DNA from: Escherichia coli phage vB_EcoS_Ace | Sequence record: MT833283.1 | Direction: 5' to 3' (one strand) | Length of the DNA stretch: 64,000 nucleotides | Part shown: one piece after another, positions 29,178-60,112 of the stretch | Layout: every line of letters begins with the position of its first letter | Numbering within the stretch: the first letter of the stretch is position 1 | Program-made: the position numbers and the translations under genes | The notes under the pieces: generated by a model | Told to the model about the DNA's origin: nothing | The model's database searches: none | The model's input: only the letters and a program-made list of their open reading frames with translations

Positions 29178-29253
29178 TGGCTGGGATGCCACGGATCGAA
29201 CGTGGAACCTTCGGAGTCAGAGGCCGACGATCTGCCAATTGATCTACATCCCA
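29178..29253 (-). tRNA. tRNA-Gln (CUG)
   Basis: cloverleaf by hand; U1-A72, G73; anticodon loop CTCTGAC. Confidence 0.55.
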
Positions 29254-33775: not shown

Positions 33776-33850
33776 TGGCGGTACTAAGGGTAATCGAAAC
33801 CCTACCTCTCCCGTGACAGGGGAGTATCCTAACCGTTAGACTATAGTACC
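33776..33850 (-). tRNA. tRNA-Asp (GUC)
   Basis: anticodon arm CTCCC-CTGTCAC-GGGAG. Confidence 0.65.
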
Positions 33851-34371
33851 TTTAACTTTTTAAGTTCTTTAGGATTGCCTCCTAAAGAAGTGTATCTTTT
33901 ACGCAACCCATTATCTGAATAACTTAACTTTCTCCCTGCACCTGACCAGCCTAGCTCTCTTACTGTAACCTCGATTATTTCTTTAGTTATAGAGATATCT
34001 TTTGGTTTATGTGAAGAGCACTCCTGACATTTTTCAGCTTTTAAAGAAATAGCTTTACCACAATCCTTACAACAATTATCATGGTTTAGTTTACTAAATC
34101 CTTTATCTTTTAAAGTCTTTTCTAGATGCTGCTCTTTTGTGAGCACTTGTAAGTTATTAAGACCCCAATAAGTAATGTCTGTGTTAATATGGTCAACTTC
34201 TAGTTCAGAGTCTAGACTTGGTAATTTCTTAAATGCACATGCTAAAATCCTATGTACACCAGTATTTCTCTGTTGACCATTTTTATGGAGACGTATAGAT
34301 AAGTATCCGTAATTACTGGTTATTGGGGTTAGTATTTTGTTTGATTTGATACTAAATACTAACCCATCCAA
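33841..34371 (-). CDS. HNH homing endonuclease (176 aa)
   Basis: HNH motif (VHRILACAF...EVDHIN...N...H); within tRNA cluster, as for T5 F-Tfl endonucleases as recalled. Confidence 0.65.
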   Translation of the reverse strand: MDGLVFSIKSNKILTPITSNYGYLSIRLHKNGQQRNTGVHRILACAFKKLPSLDSELEVDHINTDITYWGLNNLQVLTKEQHLEKTLKDKGFSKLNHDNCCKDCGKAISLKAEKCQECSSHKPKDISITKEIIEVTVRELGWSGAGRKLSYSDNGLRKRYTSLGGNPKELKKLKVL

Positions 34372-38494: not shown

Positions 38495-38524
38495 ATTTGA
38501 TTCCTCTCTCAAATTTATAAATAT

Positions 38525-38553
38525 ATTATACAGAAATTTTCTATATTAAGCAA
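38525..38553 (-). promoter_or_regulatory. sigma70 promoter (TATAAT / TTGCTT)
   Basis: minus strand; 17-bp spacer. Confidence 0.6.
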
Positions 38554-38571
38554 GTGAAAATTTCTGTATAA

Positions 38572-38591
38572 TAGCCCTCGCTTAGAGGGCT
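38572..38591 (-). terminator. GC hairpin, possible terminator after pnuC
   Basis: stem AGCCCTC/GAGGGCT immediately 3' of pnuC stop; U-tract weak. Confidence 0.35.
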
Positions 38592-38600
38592 ATAGCTACT

Positions 38601-39293
38601 TTATTTGTTAACGCGTACAAAGTATCCTTTATATGCCCCAAGAATAGAGTTACCTAAAAATACTAGCCACATTGCTAGGATTGCATAAGATGCACCTGTA
38701 GATTGAGCAGTTACAAGCCAAATGTATACAGTACCAATGTTAATAGCAATCCAGATCAGCCACTGCTCGGCATACTGCTTAACCATAAGCCACATAGCGA
38801 TCACACTACCTACCGCAGTAAATGCATCCAACATTGGGAATGGATCAGCCGTAGTAGTTAAGAAACTACCATACCCTAACGTGGCTACTGCTAGAATCCC
38901 TAGAGTCAGCAGAGCTTGGACTTTAGTCAGAATCTTAGTTGGAACATCTGGCAGATTACTTGGCTTATTTTTATGCCATAAGTACATTCCATAAAACTGC
39001 ATAGGAACGTAGTATAGCAGGTTTAGTGCAGCGTTACCATAAAGATCTTCGTTTAAAGCTGTAATACCATAGGTAAGAACACCAACTAAGCCCCAAATAT
39101 AGTTAGAAACACGTCCTTTAGCAACCAAAATAACACAAACTACGTTGGTTATCGCAGTAGCCCAATCTAGAGGTGTACCATTATAGTTAGCTAAACTAAT
39201 GAAGGCAACCGCTATGAACAGCCACAGATATTCCAGAGGTTTCCAGTTTTTAAAGTCATTTACGAGATAGTTAGTCATATTAAAACTCTCCAA
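38601..39293 (-). CDS. pnuC: nicotinamide riboside transporter (PnuC family)
   Basis: 230-aa multi-pass membrane protein with PnuC-like conserved blocks; immediately downstream of NadR-like gene. Confidence 0.6.
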   Translation of the reverse strand: MESFNMTNYLVNDFKNWKPLEYLWLFIAVAFISLANYNGTPLDWATAITNVVCVILVAKGRVSNYIWGLVGVLTYGITALNEDLYGNAALNLLYYVPMQFYGMYLWHKNKPSNLPDVPTKILTKVQALLTLGILAVATLGYGSFLTTTADPFPMLDAFTAVGSVIAMWLMVKQYAEQWLIWIAINIGTVYIWLVTAQSTGASYAILAMWLVFLGNSILGAYKGYFVRVNK

Positions 39294-39903
39294 CGTTAAA
39301 GTGATGAATCAGCCAGTCTACTGCGTTTACTGCTTCGTCCATACGAACTTTGTAGTCCGGGGAGTCGATGTACACAGTACGCCCTTCAGGGAACTGATTT
39401 GGAAATTCTTTCTTCATCTGCTCGAACAGTTCAGAAGTAATTGAACGATCGGAGTTAATACGTAAACCATCATCTACCCACTTGACAGTGGGCGCTAGAA
39501 CAATTACTAAATCGTAATGTTCTTCTTTTGCAATTGCTGTAACCACAGGGTTCTTACGATGTTCATAAAGTCTGTGGTAGAACTCAGTAATAAAAGCATT
39601 TGTATCCACAAACATGATCTTATTTGCAGTACGTTCTGCCTCAAACTCTAGCTCTTTGTGTCTGAACGCAATTTTACTATAATCTTCGCTGGTAAGCAGA
39701 TTTTCGTTACCAACTAGATCAACTTCACAATACGTTCGACCATATTCTTCTACCCACGAAGTGTTGTATAGCTTCGCAAGGTATTTTGTTAAAGTAGTCT
39801 TTCCTGAGCTTTCAGTCCCAATGATTACAACCCTACGCACGTAATCTTTACGAACTACGCTAGGAAGAAACTCCCAATACTTCATAAGATCATTACGAAT
39901 CAT
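39280..39903 (-). CDS. nadR: NadR-like protein, C-terminal ribosylnicotinamide kinase domain (part after in-frame TAG)
   Basis: Walker A GTESSGKTT; collinear with E. coli NadR C-terminal domain; same frame as 40117..40335 across a single TAG. Confidence 0.6.
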   Translation of the reverse strand: MIRNDLMKYWEFLPSVVRKDYVRRVVIIGTESSGKTTLTKYLAKLYNTSWVEEYGRTYCEVDLVGNENLLTSEDYSKIAFRHKELEFEAERTANKIMFVDTNAFITEFYHRLYEHRKNPVVTAIAKEEHYDLVIVLAPTVKWVDDGLRINSDRSITSELFEQMKKEFPNQFPEGRTVYIDSPDYKVRMDEAVNAVDWLIHHFNVGEF

Positions 39904-40116
39904 TGTAGCTGAGATTGGAACACGAGTCCGATCAGAATCTACAATATAATGACCAAACTTCGGCAGATATTTCTTATATTCTGCATCATAGTCTAGTTCG
40001 CTAGAGAAAATGGTGATCTCAGGTAAATGTCCGTAATTTTCATTAAGGATTCTAGCATATTCCGGCCAACCATTCGGATATTCAGGAATATCATCTTCAA
40101 TAATATACTCTACCTA

Positions 40117-40335
40117 AACGTGCTCAATATCCGCGTAAGTTTGTTCTAACCAACGAAGACGATTCTTTAACTGTAATACTTCCTGATCACGTGTGTTCTG
40201 CTTATCCAGCCAACGATTATCATGACTAACTACAATAATAACTCGTTCACACATAGTTGCTGCTGTATTTATTAGGTTAATATGGCCACGCGTTAAGGGT
40301 GCGAACTTACCAATTACTAGACCAGTCTTAATCAT
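40117..40335 (-). CDS. nadR: NadR-like protein, N-terminal NMN adenylyltransferase segment ending at in-frame TAG
   Basis: nucleotidyltransferase motif GKFAPLTRGHINLI; start set at Met after SD because the track ATG at 40386 lies inside the promoter. Confidence 0.55.
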
Positions 40336-40365
40336 GTTTGATTCCTCTCTCAAATTTATAAATAT

Positions 40366-40394
40366 ATTATACAGAGAATTTAGCATTCAAGCAA
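40366..40394 (-). promoter_or_regulatory. sigma70 promoter (TATAAT / TTGCTT) for nadR-like/pnuC
   Basis: minus strand; 17-bp spacer. Confidence 0.6.
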
Positions 40395-40598
40395 ACGAAT
40401 TTTTAAACTTTTTAGTGGAAAAATCTCAGGGCATTTAATGGTAGCACGTTGTTGCAGCAACAATAGTATGCGATTCTAAAGAATTAAATACTAAAGACCT
40501 TAGTTGAATAACTTATGGGCTTTTCTTTTGCCTTAAATACAGAAAAGCCCGCGCTCTCGGAGGGAACGCGGGCTTGGTTCGAAGATTACGTGTAACTA

Positions 40599-41543
40599 TT
40601 ACTTGTTACGCATATCCATGATCATTTGACCATCGTAGCCAGTACCAACAACAGTCTGCGGTACACCACCTTGGTATTTTTCAGCACGAAGCATTTCAAC
40701 TTCCAGCTGCTTCCAACGAATCATTTCAGGAGTAATGGTACGTTGCAGCGCGGCGTTAGCTTCAGCTTCTTTCTTAGCTGCGTACAGTTTAGCATCTGCG
40801 TCACGTTCGTTAGCTACTGCCATGTTTTCACGAGCAGAACGATCAGCTTCAGCTTGCTTAACTTTCTGCTGTGCTTCTTGTTCAACACGAGCCAATTCAG
40901 CTTTTGCAGCGTTAACTTGTTCTTCACGAACTTTAGTGTTCTGTACCTGTTCCATGATTACCGGTGGCAGAGTAATATCCTGAAGGAATACTTGCTTAAC
41001 CGTGTAACCATAAGGACGCGCGTACTCTTCTACCTCTTGCTGAATAGCAGTTTGCAGTTGAGCCTGAATCTTAGCGTCGAACAGATCTTGTGCTTTTGGT
41101 ACGGACTTACCAAACTCACGAATCGTAGACAGCATCTTCTCTTCAACGTACTTGTTCAGAGCTTGATCCTGAGTACCTGCGTTAACACGGTTCATAGGAG
41201 CTTTAGCACCATCAAACTGCAACATAACGGTAATGTCAACAGTAGACTTAAACTTATCCTGGCTAGGAACCTGAAGTTTATCCAGTTTCATGGAAATATC
41301 TTTCGTACTAAAAGTATCAAAAGAAGCAAATGGGTTAACAATATGGAAGCCTGGCAGTACAGGGTTCGGGCTAACTTTACCCAGGAAGGTCTGAGTCTTT
41401 ACAGTACCATCCTGAACAACTGTGTAGGAATTGAGAGCCAGAATAAGAGCACCAAGACCAACTACAGCACCAACACCCCAACGTTTAATAGTACGAATTA
41501 CTTTTTGCTCAGAAGTCAGTTCTTTAGTGTTTTTAGTAAACAT
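40599..41543 (-). CDS. SPFH/band-7 (prohibitin/HflK-like) membrane protein
   Basis: N-terminal TM, SPFH-like core, long Ala/Glu/Gln-rich coiled-coil C-terminus. Confidence 0.6.
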   Translation of the reverse strand: MFTKNTKELTSEQKVIRTIKRWGVGAVVGLGALILALNSYTVVQDGTVKTQTFLGKVSPNPVLPGFHIVNPFASFDTFSTKDISMKLDKLQVPSQDKFKSTVDITVMLQFDGAKAPMNRVNAGTQDQALNKYVEEKMLSTIREFGKSVPKAQDLFDAKIQAQLQTAIQQEVEEYARPYGYTVKQVFLQDITLPPVIMEQVQNTKVREEQVNAAKAELARVEQEAQQKVKQAEADRSARENMAVANERDADAKLYAAKKEAEANAALQRTITPEMIRWKQLEVEMLRAEKYQGGVPQTVVGTGYDGQMIMDMRNK

Positions 41544-42374: not shown

Positions 42375-43247
42375 ATTGATTCCTTTTGTTAGGTATTTTT
42401 AAGAACTCTCGAAAAAGCTCTTAAAGATACCCGGCGGTAGGTAGGGTCAGCCCCCTCAGATTAAGCTCTGCAGCCCTTCCGTCAGACAATATCCTCCAGT
42501 TTAAGTCAGGGTGACTTTGTGGTTATGTTCTCCGTATGTGAAGAACTCGGTTAGGCTTAGGTCATGACTCCCAGCCTACTGCTGCCACTCAACAGGAATT
42601 ATCGCGAATTACCTGTACTATTGGGCACCATTAGTGACATCTCTCATGCCAGCATTTCCCACTCTCATATTCACGCGGTCTGGTAGAATCACACCTCCGA
42701 TTTTCGATGCGAAGCTGGATGCCTAGTCTCTATGTTAAACGGGGCACACACTAGGCAGTGATCCCGAGTTCCGAGTTTGGTTGAGGCCGTCAGGTTTCCT
42801 CGTGGTTTAGCTGTTTCGATTCTAACCTAATACTGATCAGGCGGCGTACCTCCTGAACCGTCATAGTATGTACTCCAGCAGCGAATGCTTATCCGGTATA
42901 AGCCCGAGTTATCCGATTCTTTCCGACCGCAGGATTCGAACCTGCATCTTCCACCAGTTACGGTTTAATATTACCGTTTATACTAGGACGGCAGTGTTAT
43001 CACATAAGTCAGTTCGACACCCCACTAACATAAACTAGAGAAGAGTTTACGAGATTTCGGGACAGCTCCCGTGTTTTCCGCAGATTTTCAGTTCCCTATC
43101 AATAGCAATAAGCGTTAGCTCGTAGCCTCTCTCAGAGTACTTACTAGTCTCCAACTCACCGACTCTATTCAGTGGAATAGCTATCCTAGTAGGAATCACT
43201 AAACTCACTCAGCGTAATCGGCTCGCTGTTCTCTACTTTATGAATTT

Positions 43248-59063: not shown

Positions 59064-59282
59064 ATGGCAAAAGTACCACAAGAATTTACGGATGGAATTA
59101 AGGCAGATCTAGATGTAATGCTAATGGCCCAATGGGAGTCTGGCTTCCGAGATGGAATTGATTGTTGTGTGGCCGTGCTCGATACTATTAGTTGGCAGCT
59201 TATTCAATCTGGAAATGATGCAGAAGGCAACCTTCTAGCTAACCTTTCTAAACAAATTAGGGAAATGAAATGCGCAGATTAA
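59064..59282 (+). CDS. hypothetical protein (72 aa)
   Basis: ATG after GAGAGGAGAAAACGA leader of plus-strand promoter cassette; overlaps start of next gene. Confidence 0.45.
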   Translation: MAKVPQEFTDGIKADLDVMLMAQWESGFRDGIDCCVAVLDTISWQLIQSGNDAEGNLLANLSKQIREMKCAD

Positions 59283-60112
59283 TTATTGTTAGTGGTGCAG
59301 GTTTGAGTGTAGATAGTGGTGTTCGTGCTTTCCGTACTGATACTGCTAGTGGGAAATCCTTGTGGGATGAGTACGATCTAGAGGAAGTATGTAGCTTGCC
59401 TAACTTTGAAGCTGGCTTCCGTCGCTTCTGTGGTGAAGATGATCCTAACTACTTCAGTGCTCGTTTCCCTGGCATTGATGAAGATGGTAACGATCTGTAT
59501 CTCAAGACTCATGAGTTCTACAACATGCGTCGTCAGGAATTACAGACTGTTGAGCCTAACATTGCCCATCTGCGAATTGCAGAATGGTTCCAGCGTTATG
59601 ATGCGGATAGCGTGAAGAACTTCACTACTAACGTTGATGACCTTCTGGAACGTGCTGGTATCCCTCGTGATGAAATCATTCACGCTCACGGGTACTTGAA
59701 AGAGGTGATCTATCGTCAGGGTCGCAATCAAATCATCGAAGATGTTGGGTATACTGCGATTGCCCCTGAAGATTACGAATGGGTAAAACCAAACGTAACA
59801 TTCTTTGGTGAGACGGCTCCGTGGTATATGGGTCAGATTAACCTGTTTGATACGCTTACTAGCAATGATATGGTTATTGTGGTAGGTTGTAGCAACCAAG
59901 TGATTGACTTCAACTGGGAACTATTCCCTGCTGTATGTCGTGGAACTAAGATGATGGTTGTTAACCCTCAAGTTCGCTATGATGAACAGCTTGAATATGA
60001 GAAACGTGGTGTTACTGTATGGCGGGCTGGAGCTGCCGAAGTTTTTGGTAACAAGCATTTCATTGGTCAAGTAGAAGCCTTTATGGAAGGAACTATTTAT
60101 GTCGCATCCTAA
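59270..60112 (+). CDS. Sir2-family (sirtuin-like) protein
   Basis: GAGLSVDSGVRAFR, TTNVDDLLERAG, HAHG, VTFFGE, VVGCS blocks; no Zn-ribbon Cys pairs seen. Confidence 0.6.
   Translation: MRRLIIVSGAGLSVDSGVRAFRTDTASGKSLWDEYDLEEVCSLPNFEAGFRRFCGEDDPNYFSARFPGIDEDGNDLYLKTHEFYNMRRQELQTVEPNIAHLRIAEWFQRYDADSVKNFTTNVDDLLERAGIPRDEIIHAHGYLKEVIYRQGRNQIIEDVGYTAIAPEDYEWVKPNVTFFGETAPWYMGQINLFDTLTSNDMVIVVGCSNQVIDFNWELFPAVCRGTKMMVVNPQVRYDEQLEYEKRGVTVWRAGAAEVFGNKHFIGQVEAFMEGTIYVAS

What the first reader, a model, noticed from the sequence alone, without database searches (positions are those of the whole stretch)
38601..40394. Phage-encoded NAD+ salvage pair (PnuC transporter plus NadR-like NMNAT/NR kinase)
A PnuC-family transporter gene and a NadR-like gene sit in one promoter-driven unit. 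Together they could import nicotinamide riboside and convert it to NMN and NAD+. In light of published NAD+-depleting bacterial defences and phage NAD+-reconstitution pathways, this pair is a candidate counter-defence or metabolic-boost module, although the NadR-like gene carries the amber codon in this sequence.
Basis: partly seen in the sequence, partly recalled or inferred. Interest (0 to 1): 0.6.

Follow-up and report, generated by a model that had tools for sequence, protein, structure and literature searches.

The report
Known phage NAD+ salvage operon, amber-broken
This is the two-gene NAD+-rebuilding operon (NARP3: a nicotinamide riboside importer plus a NadR-like enzyme) already characterised in a near-identical T5-like phage, but in this genome a single-base change puts a stop codon into the enzyme gene, so here it is probably switched off.

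Summary
On the minus strand a promoter (40394-40366) precedes a NadR-like gene (40335-39280). One base after its stop comes a PnuC gene (39278-38601). The window is a T5-like Epseptimavirus, about 97% identical in DNA to phages S116, 26175I and TrudiRoth (Bas30).

Yan et al. (Sci Adv, Aug 2026, PMC13464706) named this pair NARP3. They solved the Bas30_86 structure (PDB 9x6f/9x6h) and showed nicotinamide riboside import, conversion of NR to NMN to NAD+, and rescue from Sir2-HerA and DSR1. The window's proteins differ from Bas30_86 at 4 residues plus the stop, and from Bas30_87 at 7 of 225 residues.

The one local peculiarity is the amber codon:
- It is codon 74, TAG where three aligned relatives have TCG (Ser).
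- No record among 50,697 phage genomes carries it.
- It recurs exactly in Logan assemblies of several runs.
- Nothing downstream has decayed, no amber-suppressor tRNA is encoded, and no other substantial gene is broken.

The best reading is a recent spontaneous nonsense mutation that makes this phage a natural, suppressible NARP3-null. Interest is low.

The parts
40545..40575 (-). Intrinsic terminator that ends the upstream SPFH/Band-7 gene unit and insulates the operon
   Evidence: 12-bp stem with 8 GC pairs and a T-rich tail.: -22.6 kcal/mol. Conserved in relatives.
40366..40394 (-). Sigma-70 type promoter TTGCTT-17 nt-TATAAT (T5 early-promoter style)
   Evidence: Read from the sequence. Both hexamers are invariant in the window, 26175I, S116, Bas30 and the paralogous copy. 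The generic scan does not list it.
40337..40375 (-). 39-nt cassette holding the -10 element, the 5'UTR and the Shine-Dalgarno GAGAGAGG; exact copy 1, in front of nadR
   Evidence: two exact copies in the window, none in 100 shuffles.
39280..40335 (-). NadR-like bifunctional gene (NMNAT domain plus ribosylnicotinamide kinase domain, no HTH), 351 codons, interrupted by an amber codon at codon 74
   Evidence: PDB 9x6f (Bas30_86) E=3.9e-240. Of 17 published site and mutagenesis residues, 16 are identical and one is K168R.
40114..40116 (-). In-frame amber codon TAG (codon 74); three aligned relatives have TCG (Ser)
   Evidence: Absent from 50,697 phage records. Present in Logan contigs L004 and L005.
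39280..39903 (-). Longest ORF after the amber codon (starts at Met145, 207 aa, kinase domain only). It is a possible but unlikely restart product, because no Shine-Dalgarno sequence lies upstream.
38601..39278 (-). PnuC-family nicotinamide riboside transporter gene, 225 aa, starting 1 nt after the nadR stop
   Evidence: Differs at 7 of 225 residues from Bas30_87.
38571..38593 (-). 9-bp GC-rich hairpin directly after pnuC; a probable operon end, but it lacks a good U tract
   Evidence: -17.1 kcal/mol. Not called as a terminator.
38496..38534 (-). Exact copy 2 of the promoter/5'UTR cassette. It drives the next gene (38494-38198, a 98-aa protein with a signal peptide) and so marks the start of a separate unit.

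Best explanation
The locus is an orthologue of the published phage NARP3 operon in a T5-like Epseptimavirus.

Intended mechanism: an early sigma-70 promoter drives a bicistronic mRNA. PnuC lets nicotinamide riboside (NR) into the cell. The kinase domain of the NadR-like enzyme phosphorylates NR to NMN, which traps it. The NMNAT domain then adenylates NMN to NAD+. This refills the NAD+ pool that defences such as Sir2-HerA and DSR1 destroy.

In this genome a single C-to-A change (TCG to TAG) at codon 74 ends translation inside the NMNAT domain. In an ordinary non-suppressor host the enzyme is therefore not made, and the module is expected to be inactive. The mutation is recent and probably spontaneous. 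It makes the phage a natural NARP3-null that a suppressor host could rescue.

Shown here: gene identity, operon anatomy, the nonsense codon, its rarity, and its recurrence in independent assemblies.
Taken from the literature: the biochemical activities and the counter-defence effect of the 99%-identical orthologue.
Inferred: loss of function here, and that the mutation is recent.
For: Identity of the module:
- Pfam and NCBIfam hits.
- PDB 9x6f/9x6h at E=3.9e-240, and 4QTN for PnuC.
- 96.9-97.9% DNA identity to TrudiRoth, S116 and 26175I, with the same gene order.

Function of the orthologue:
- PMC13464706 shows NR import, conversion of NR to NMN to NAD+, and a 10^3-10^4-fold rescue of T7 and lambda from Sir2-HerA.
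- Neither gene alone suffices, and NMNAT-site and kinase-site mutants are inactive.

Amber codon:
- Present in the translation. The three aligned relatives have TCG.
- The 45-mer centred on the TAG has no match in 50,697 phage records.
- 21 records match the TCG version of the 91-mer exactly.
- The same TAG occurs in Logan contigs from ERR7888529 (a contig seen in 4 samples) and ERR7888521, both 100% identical to the window.

Recency:
- Changes private to the window in nadR are 8 synonymous, one K168R, and the stop. There are no frameshifts or further stops.
- 16 of 17 published site and mutagenesis residues are identical.

Isolated event:
- Among TrudiRoth ORFs mapped onto the window, nadR is the only substantial annotated gene with an internal stop.
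- TAG ends three other long ORFs in the window.
- None of the 29 tRNAs has a CUA anticodon.
Against: - No expression or activity data exist for this phage.
- The Logan runs may be the very data the window was assembled from, or the same phage stock, so they may not be independent.
- Low-level natural readthrough of UAG, or growth on a supE, supF or supD host, would give some full-length enzyme.
- Position 74 is not conserved (Phe in H. influenzae NadR), so any inserted residue would probably be tolerated.
- pnuC has its own Shine-Dalgarno sequence and may still be made.
- The published NARP3 work was done with plasmid expression and heterologous phages, not in the native phage. The contribution of the module to a T5-like infection is therefore itself unmeasured.
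Confidence: 0.72

Rival explanations
1. The module is still functional because the amber codon is read through. This could happen through a host suppressor (supD, supE or supF in the propagation strain) or through near-cognate decoding, possibly boosted by the phage's own tRNA-Gln(CUG). That would give reduced but sufficient NadR-like enzyme.
For: The reading frame downstream of the stop is perfectly preserved and its catalytic residues are intact. Position 74 is variable in the family. The phage encodes tRNA-Gln(CUG) at 29178-29253. Many E. coli K-12 laboratory hosts carry supE44 (general knowledge).
Against: No CUA-anticodon tRNA is present, and the extra tRNA-like gene at 42921-42992 has no CTA in its anticodon region. 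All relatives examined use a sense codon, so this is not a programmed feature. TAG ends other ORFs in the window. Preservation downstream is equally expected for a very recent knock-out.
Confidence: 0.12
2. The TAG is a sequencing or assembly error, and the real phage has an intact NARP3 operon.
For: It is a single-base difference that no other record in a large collection shares.
Against: The same base appears in Logan assemblies of at least two named runs, and one of those contigs occurs in four samples. All are 100% identical to the window over 1.7-1.9 kb. No other substantial gene in the 64-kb window shows an internal stop, so the sequence is not generally error-prone.
Confidence: 0.08
3. 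Partial function: PnuC, together with a kinase-only product restarted at Met145, still imports NR and traps it as NMN. Host enzymes (NadR NMNAT, or PncC with NadD and NadE) then finish NAD+ synthesis.
For: The 207-aa ORF from Met145 contains the whole kinase domain (AAA_28, residues 168-314). E. coli can convert NMN to NAD+ through NadR or PncC (stated in Osterman et al.).
Against: Met145 lies 71 codons after the stop and has no Shine-Dalgarno sequence upstream. In the published assay, NMNAT-site mutants with an intact kinase domain failed to restore NAD+ even though host NadR was present.
Confidence: 0.05
4. In T5-like phages the main role of the module is not counter-defence. It is a general supply of NAD+ for the phage's own NAD+-consuming enzymes, or a metabolic boost. 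Its loss would then cost little under laboratory conditions.
For: The same window encodes a Sir2-family protein (59270-60112; annotated 'Sir2-like protein' in TrudiRoth). The module's function in the native phage has not been tested. A null allele persists in several sequenced samples.
Against: The orthologue clearly counters Sir2-HerA and DSR1 when expressed. The two roles are not mutually exclusive.
Confidence: 0.2

Closest known systems
NARP3 (Bas30_86/Bas30_87 of Escherichia phage TrudiRoth; Yan et al., Sci Adv 2026, PMC13464706; PDB 9x6f, 9x6h)
   Same: Same genus (Epseptimavirus), same position between the SPFH gene and the tRNA cluster, same two-gene order and the same promoter. DNA identity is 96.9%. 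The enzyme differs at I34V, V73I, R168K and R260S (window residue first), and the transporter at 7 of 225 residues. The published site residues are conserved, with K168R the only change.
   Different: Codon 74 of the enzyme gene is TAG instead of TCG, so the NMNAT domain is truncated after 73 residues unless the stop is suppressed.
Bacterial NadR plus PnuC (Haemophilus influenzae, Salmonella, E. coli; PDB 1LW7, 4QTN)
   Same: The same two catalytic domains and the same transporter fold, and the same route NR to NMN to NAD+.
   Different: The phage enzyme lacks the N-terminal HTH repressor domain: it matches profile positions 65-407 of 411. It scores below the TIGR01526 equivalog cut-off (273 against 341). 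The two genes are fused into one operon, whereas in E. coli they lie at separate loci.
NARP1 and NARP2 (Osterman et al. 2024)
   Same: Phage-encoded two-gene pathways that rebuild NAD+ to defeat NAD+-depleting defences.
   Different: The substrates and enzymes differ. NARP1 uses ADPR and nicotinamide (Adps and Namat). NARP2 uses nicotinamide and PRPP (Nampt and NMNAT). NARP3 needs external nicotinamide riboside and a transporter.

Membership tests
NARP3 (phage NadR-like + PnuC operon) | Adjacent, co-oriented NadR-like and PnuC-like genes in a phage genome, in one transcription unit | tested here: met
   There is a 1-nt gap between the genes, a single promoter upstream, and hairpins on both sides.
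NARP3 (phage NadR-like + PnuC operon) | The enzyme has NMNAT and RNK domains and lacks the HTH domain | tested here: met
   Pfam CTP_transf_like at 7-147 and AAA_28 at 168-314. The NF005988 match starts at profile position 65.
NARP3 (phage NadR-like + PnuC operon) | Published site and mutagenesis residues present (K10, F11, S37, E80, P84, G89, F110, S112, D115, V139, I141, K163, D164, R167, K168, E230, D275) | tested here: met
   16 of 17 are identical and K168 is R.
NARP3 (phage NadR-like + PnuC operon) | Uninterrupted reading frame that gives the full bifunctional enzyme | tested here: not met
   TAG at codon 74. This is the same gene, but a null allele in a non-suppressor host.
NARP3 (phage NadR-like + PnuC operon) | NR import, NR to NMN to NAD+ activity, and rescue from Sir2-HerA or DSR1 | not testable with these tools
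   Shown only for the orthologue Bas30_86/87.
Bacterial NadR (NCBIfam NF005988 / TIGR01526) | Score above the curated cut-off | tested here: inconclusive
   NF005988 scores 253.9 against 201 (passes). TIGR01526 scores 273.3 against 341.15 (fails) (the query had Ser put in place of the stop).
Bacterial NadR (NCBIfam NF005988 / TIGR01526) | N-terminal HTH DNA-binding domain (the trifunctional regulator) | tested here: not met
   Profile positions 1-64 have no counterpart.
PnuC nicotinamide riboside transporter (PF04973 / TIGR01528) | Score above the curated cut-offs, and homology to the solved PnuC structure | tested here: met
   PF04973 scores 147 bits against 27.3. TIGR01528 scores 119 against 42.45. 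4QTN gives E=1.8e-32.

The most novel reading that the evidence does not exclude
The amber allele may be more than a dead gene. It could be a naturally occurring, conditionally suppressible NARP3-null in a native T5-like phage. It might also be kept at a low leak level through near-cognate reading by the phage's own tRNA-Gln(CUG). If so, this phage and a one-base revertant would give the native-context test of NARP3 that the discovery paper said it could not perform. The allele's persistence in several samples would indicate that NARP3 is dispensable or costly in some hosts.
Probability: 0.1. Interest if true: 0.35.

Novelty: already known. Interest (0 to 1): 0.2.

Why it matters
The module matters because it is a third route by which phages rebuild NAD+ against NAD+-depleting immunity. 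That has now been published, with structures, for a 99%-identical protein pair, so this window adds no new biology about the system.

What it adds is small and practical. It is a natural single-base nonsense allele of the enzyme gene in an otherwise intact T5-like phage. The discovery paper never tested NARP3 in its native phage. This phage, compared with a revertant or grown on suppressor against non-suppressor hosts, would be a ready-made reagent for that test.

It also gives a warning for annotation. One public gene-calling pipeline reports a full 351-residue product straight across the stop codon.

Tried and rejected
- Amber-suppressor tRNA. ARAGORN finds 29 tRNAs and none has a CUA anticodon. 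Rfam finds one more tRNA-like gene at 42921-42992, but its anticodon region has no CTA, and its homologue in phage 26175I is annotated with anticodon tca. Rejected.
- Genome-wide TAG recoding or a poor-quality sequence. TrudiRoth ORFs were mapped onto the window. Only nadR, plus codon 3 of a homing-endonuclease gene (TGA), have a stop inside an annotated gene. The other hits are spurious overlapping frames. TAG ends three other long ORFs. Rejected.
- Looking for the amber allele elsewhere. It is absent from the 50,697 phage records and from IMG/VR (the sense allele matched only one contig there, so that scan says little). The exact 207-aa ORF after the stop is not on record. The exact PnuC look-up did find two Logan contigs that carry the TAG.
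- Generic promoter scan. It shows no enrichment and misses the TTGCTT promoter. I relied instead on conservation and on the exact 39-nt duplicate.
- Internal restart. The first in-frame start after the stop is Met145, with no Shine-Dalgarno sequence. Judged unlikely.
- Relaxed selection on pnuC after the nadR knock-out. Window-private changes are 4 nonsynonymous to 5 synonymous in pnuC, against 2 to 8 in nadR. These are too few to conclude anything.
- Structure prediction and the large homology searches were not run. A crystal structure of a 99%-identical protein already exists.

Full report
**What is in the sequence**

All features lie on the minus strand.

- The NadR-like gene starts at ATG 40335 and ends at TAA 39282-39280. 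It has 351 codons, and codon 74 is an in-frame TAG at 40116-40114.
- One nucleotide after its stop, a 225-codon gene runs from ATG 39278 to 38601. A GGAGAG Shine-Dalgarno sequence sits 7 nt upstream of that ATG.
- With Ser put in place of the stop, the first protein hits Pfam CTP_transf_like (residues 7-147) and AAA_28 (168-314). It also hits the NCBIfam NadR model NF005988 at 253.9 bits against a cut-off of 201.
- That NadR match begins at profile position 65, so the N-terminal HTH domain of bacterial NadR is absent. The protein falls below the stricter TIGR01526 cut-off, 273 against 341.
- The second protein is a clear PnuC: PF04973 at E=6e-43, TIGR01528 at 119 bits against 42, and PDB 4QTN at E=1.8e-32.

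**Operon anatomy**

- Upstream of nadR the minus strand reads TTGCTT, then 17 nt, then TATAAT (40394-40366). A 5'UTR with GAGAGAGG and the ATG follow.
- Both hexamers are invariant in the window, in phages 26175I, S116 and TrudiRoth, and in a paralogous copy.
- A 39-nt stretch covering the -10 element, the UTR and the Shine-Dalgarno sequence occurs twice in the window without a mismatch. One copy is at 40337-40375, before nadR. The other is at 38496-38534, before the next gene, which encodes a 98-aa protein with a signal peptide.
- The generic promoter scanner does not list the TTGCTT promoter and shows no enrichment. The promoter call therefore rests on conservation and on resemblance, from memory, to T5 early promoters such as PN25.
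- A strong intrinsic terminator at 40575-40545 ends the upstream SPFH/Band-7 gene.
- A 9-bp GC-rich hairpin at 38593-38571 follows pnuC. It folds at -17.1 kcal/mol but lacks a proper U tract.

**Where the window comes from**

The window is a T5-like phage of the genus Epseptimavirus (Demerecviridae). The 2.6-kb region is 97.9% identical to E. coli phage vB_EcoS-26175I, 97.2% to Salmonella phage S116, and 96.9% to Escherichia phage TrudiRoth (Bas30). Gene order is the same, and 421 phage records match. No record in the collection reaches 99% over the long queries.

**What is known about the module**

- A PDB sequence search returned 9x6f/9x6h, 'Nicotinamide-nucleotide adenylyltransferase', at E=3.9e-240. 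These are the structures of Bas30_86 from Yan et al., Sci Adv, Aug 2026 (PMC13464706).
- That paper names the Bas30_86/Bas30_87 operon NARP3. Bas30_87 imports nicotinamide riboside. Bas30_86 converts it to NMN and then to NAD+.
- Co-expression restores NAD+ and NADH depleted by Sir2-HerA, and also counters DSR1. It raises T7 and lambda plating 10^3-10^4-fold.
- Neither gene alone suffices, and mutants in either the kinase site or the NMNAT site are inactive.
- The idea was stated earlier. Iyer et al. 2022 listed NadR among phage NAD+-synthesis domains. Osterman et al. 2024 pointed to a NadR plus PnuC operon in BASEL phages as a probable further pathway.
- Compared with Bas30_86, the window's enzyme differs at I34V, V73I, R168K and R260S (window residue first), plus the stop. 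The transporter differs from Bas30_87 at 7 of 225 residues.
- Of the 17 site and mutagenesis residues named in the paper, 16 are identical and K168 is Arg.

**The amber codon**

- Codon 74 is TAG in the window and TCG (Ser) in 26175I, S116 and TrudiRoth. This is a single C-to-A transversion.
- A 45-mer centred on the TAG was designed so that every 28-nt seed word includes it. It has no match in 50,697 phage records.
- 182 records match the surrounding 91-mer, and the best matches listed reach 97.8%. 21 records match the TCG version exactly.
- An exact-protein look-up of the window's PnuC found two Logan contigs, from ERR7888529 (a contig seen in four samples) and ERR7888521. Both are 100% identical to the window over 1862 and 1734 bases and carry the same TAG.
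- The 1862-base contig (L004) spans window 38505-40366 and so ends inside the two copies of the 39-nt repeat, which explains its length. L005 shares the 38505 end but stops at about 40238, inside nadR.
- The stop is therefore not a one-off assembly slip. I cannot tell whether those runs are independent of the window's own data.

**Is the stop part of a wider pattern?**

- I mapped all ORFs of at least 60 aa from 69 kb of TrudiRoth onto the window. nadR is the only substantial annotated gene with an internal stop.
- The only other case in an annotated gene is codon 3 of a homing-endonuclease gene. The remaining hits are spurious frames.
- TAG ends three other long ORFs, and the overall stop usage is 68 TAA, 19 TGA and 4 TAG.
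- ARAGORN finds 29 tRNAs, none with a CUA anticodon. Rfam adds a marginal tRNA-like gene at 42921-42992 whose anticodon region contains no CTA.
- Within nadR, the changes private to the window are 8 synonymous, one K168R, and the stop. There are no frameshifts or second stops.
- This is the signature of a gene under purifying selection until very recently.
- From general knowledge, C-to-A is not the transition that hydroxylamine amber mutagenesis produces. That favours a spontaneous origin over a classical laboratory amber mutant.

**Consequences**

- Termination at codon 74 leaves a 73-residue fragment. It lacks most of the published NAD+-site residues, E80 to I141.
- The first in-frame start after the stop is Met145, 71 codons downstream, with no Shine-Dalgarno sequence. 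A kinase-only restart product is therefore unlikely.
- Even if such a product were made, the published NMNAT-site mutants were inactive although host NadR was present.
- pnuC keeps its own ribosome-binding site but loses translational coupling. It may also suffer polarity across about 830 untranslated nucleotides; this is an inference.
- PnuC alone does not rescue infection.
- My best explanation, at about 0.72, is a recently inactivated NARP3 operon. It would be null in sup0 hosts and restorable in supD, supE or supF hosts, since position 74 is variable in the family (Phe in H. influenzae NadR).
- The rivals are suppression or leaky readthrough (0.12), a sequencing artefact (0.08) and kinase-only partial function (0.05).
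- A non-exclusive alternative is that the module's native role is general NAD+ supply. The same window encodes a Sir2-family protein.

**Verdict**

Novelty is 'already known'. The only new element is a natural nonsense allele. It has modest practical value, because the NARP3 paper states that it could not test the system in its native phage. Interest is 0.2.

Noticed in passing
window 42921-42992 (-): A tRNA-like gene that ARAGORN missed. Rfam tRNA scores 29.7 bits against a gathering score of 29. Its homologue in phage 26175I is annotated tRNA-SeC(tca), that is, opal-suppressor-like. The acceptor, D and T arms are conserved and the T stem shows compensatory changes, but the anticodon arm is completely different and pairs poorly in the window.
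   Followed up: partly
window 38496-38534 and 40337-40375 (-): An exact 39-nt duplication of a promoter -10 element, 5'UTR and Shine-Dalgarno cassette sits in front of two unrelated genes, nadR and a 98-aa signal-peptide protein. The longer public de Bruijn-graph contig of this locus (L004) ends inside both repeat copies, and L005 ends inside one.
   Followed up: partly
locus L004 32-1087 (= window 40335-39280): The public gene call for the Logan contig reports a 351-residue product straight across the in-frame TAG, although the DNA translates with a stop. An automated pipeline can therefore hide this nonsense mutation.
   Followed up: partly
window 59270-60112 (+): A phage-encoded Sir2-family protein (PF02146, E=1e-21), annotated 'Sir2-like protein' in TrudiRoth. 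A presumptive NAD+-using enzyme sits in the same genome as the NAD+ salvage operon.
   Followed up: no
window 40599-41543 (-): An SPFH/Band-7 family membrane protein gene lies immediately upstream of the operon (PF01145, E=3e-19). Relatives annotate it variously as a lipoprotein or an SPFH protein.
   Followed up: no
window 40400-40545, especially 40449-40463: A conserved non-coding stretch of about 150 nt lies between the upstream terminator and the nadR promoter. It contains the palindrome TTGTTGC-A-GCAACAA. It could be an operator or a small RNA; its function is unknown.
   Followed up: no
window 33841-34371 (-): A homing-endonuclease gene in the tRNA cluster. The codon that corresponds to residue 3 of the TrudiRoth protein is TGA here, so the window's version must start further downstream, at a TTG.
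   Followed up: no
window 38601-39278 (-): PnuC carries four window-private amino-acid changes (A36P, A77E, A141T, M213L) against five private synonymous changes. This is a higher ratio than in nadR and might hint at relaxed selection after the nadR knock-out, but the numbers are too small to test.
   Followed up: partly
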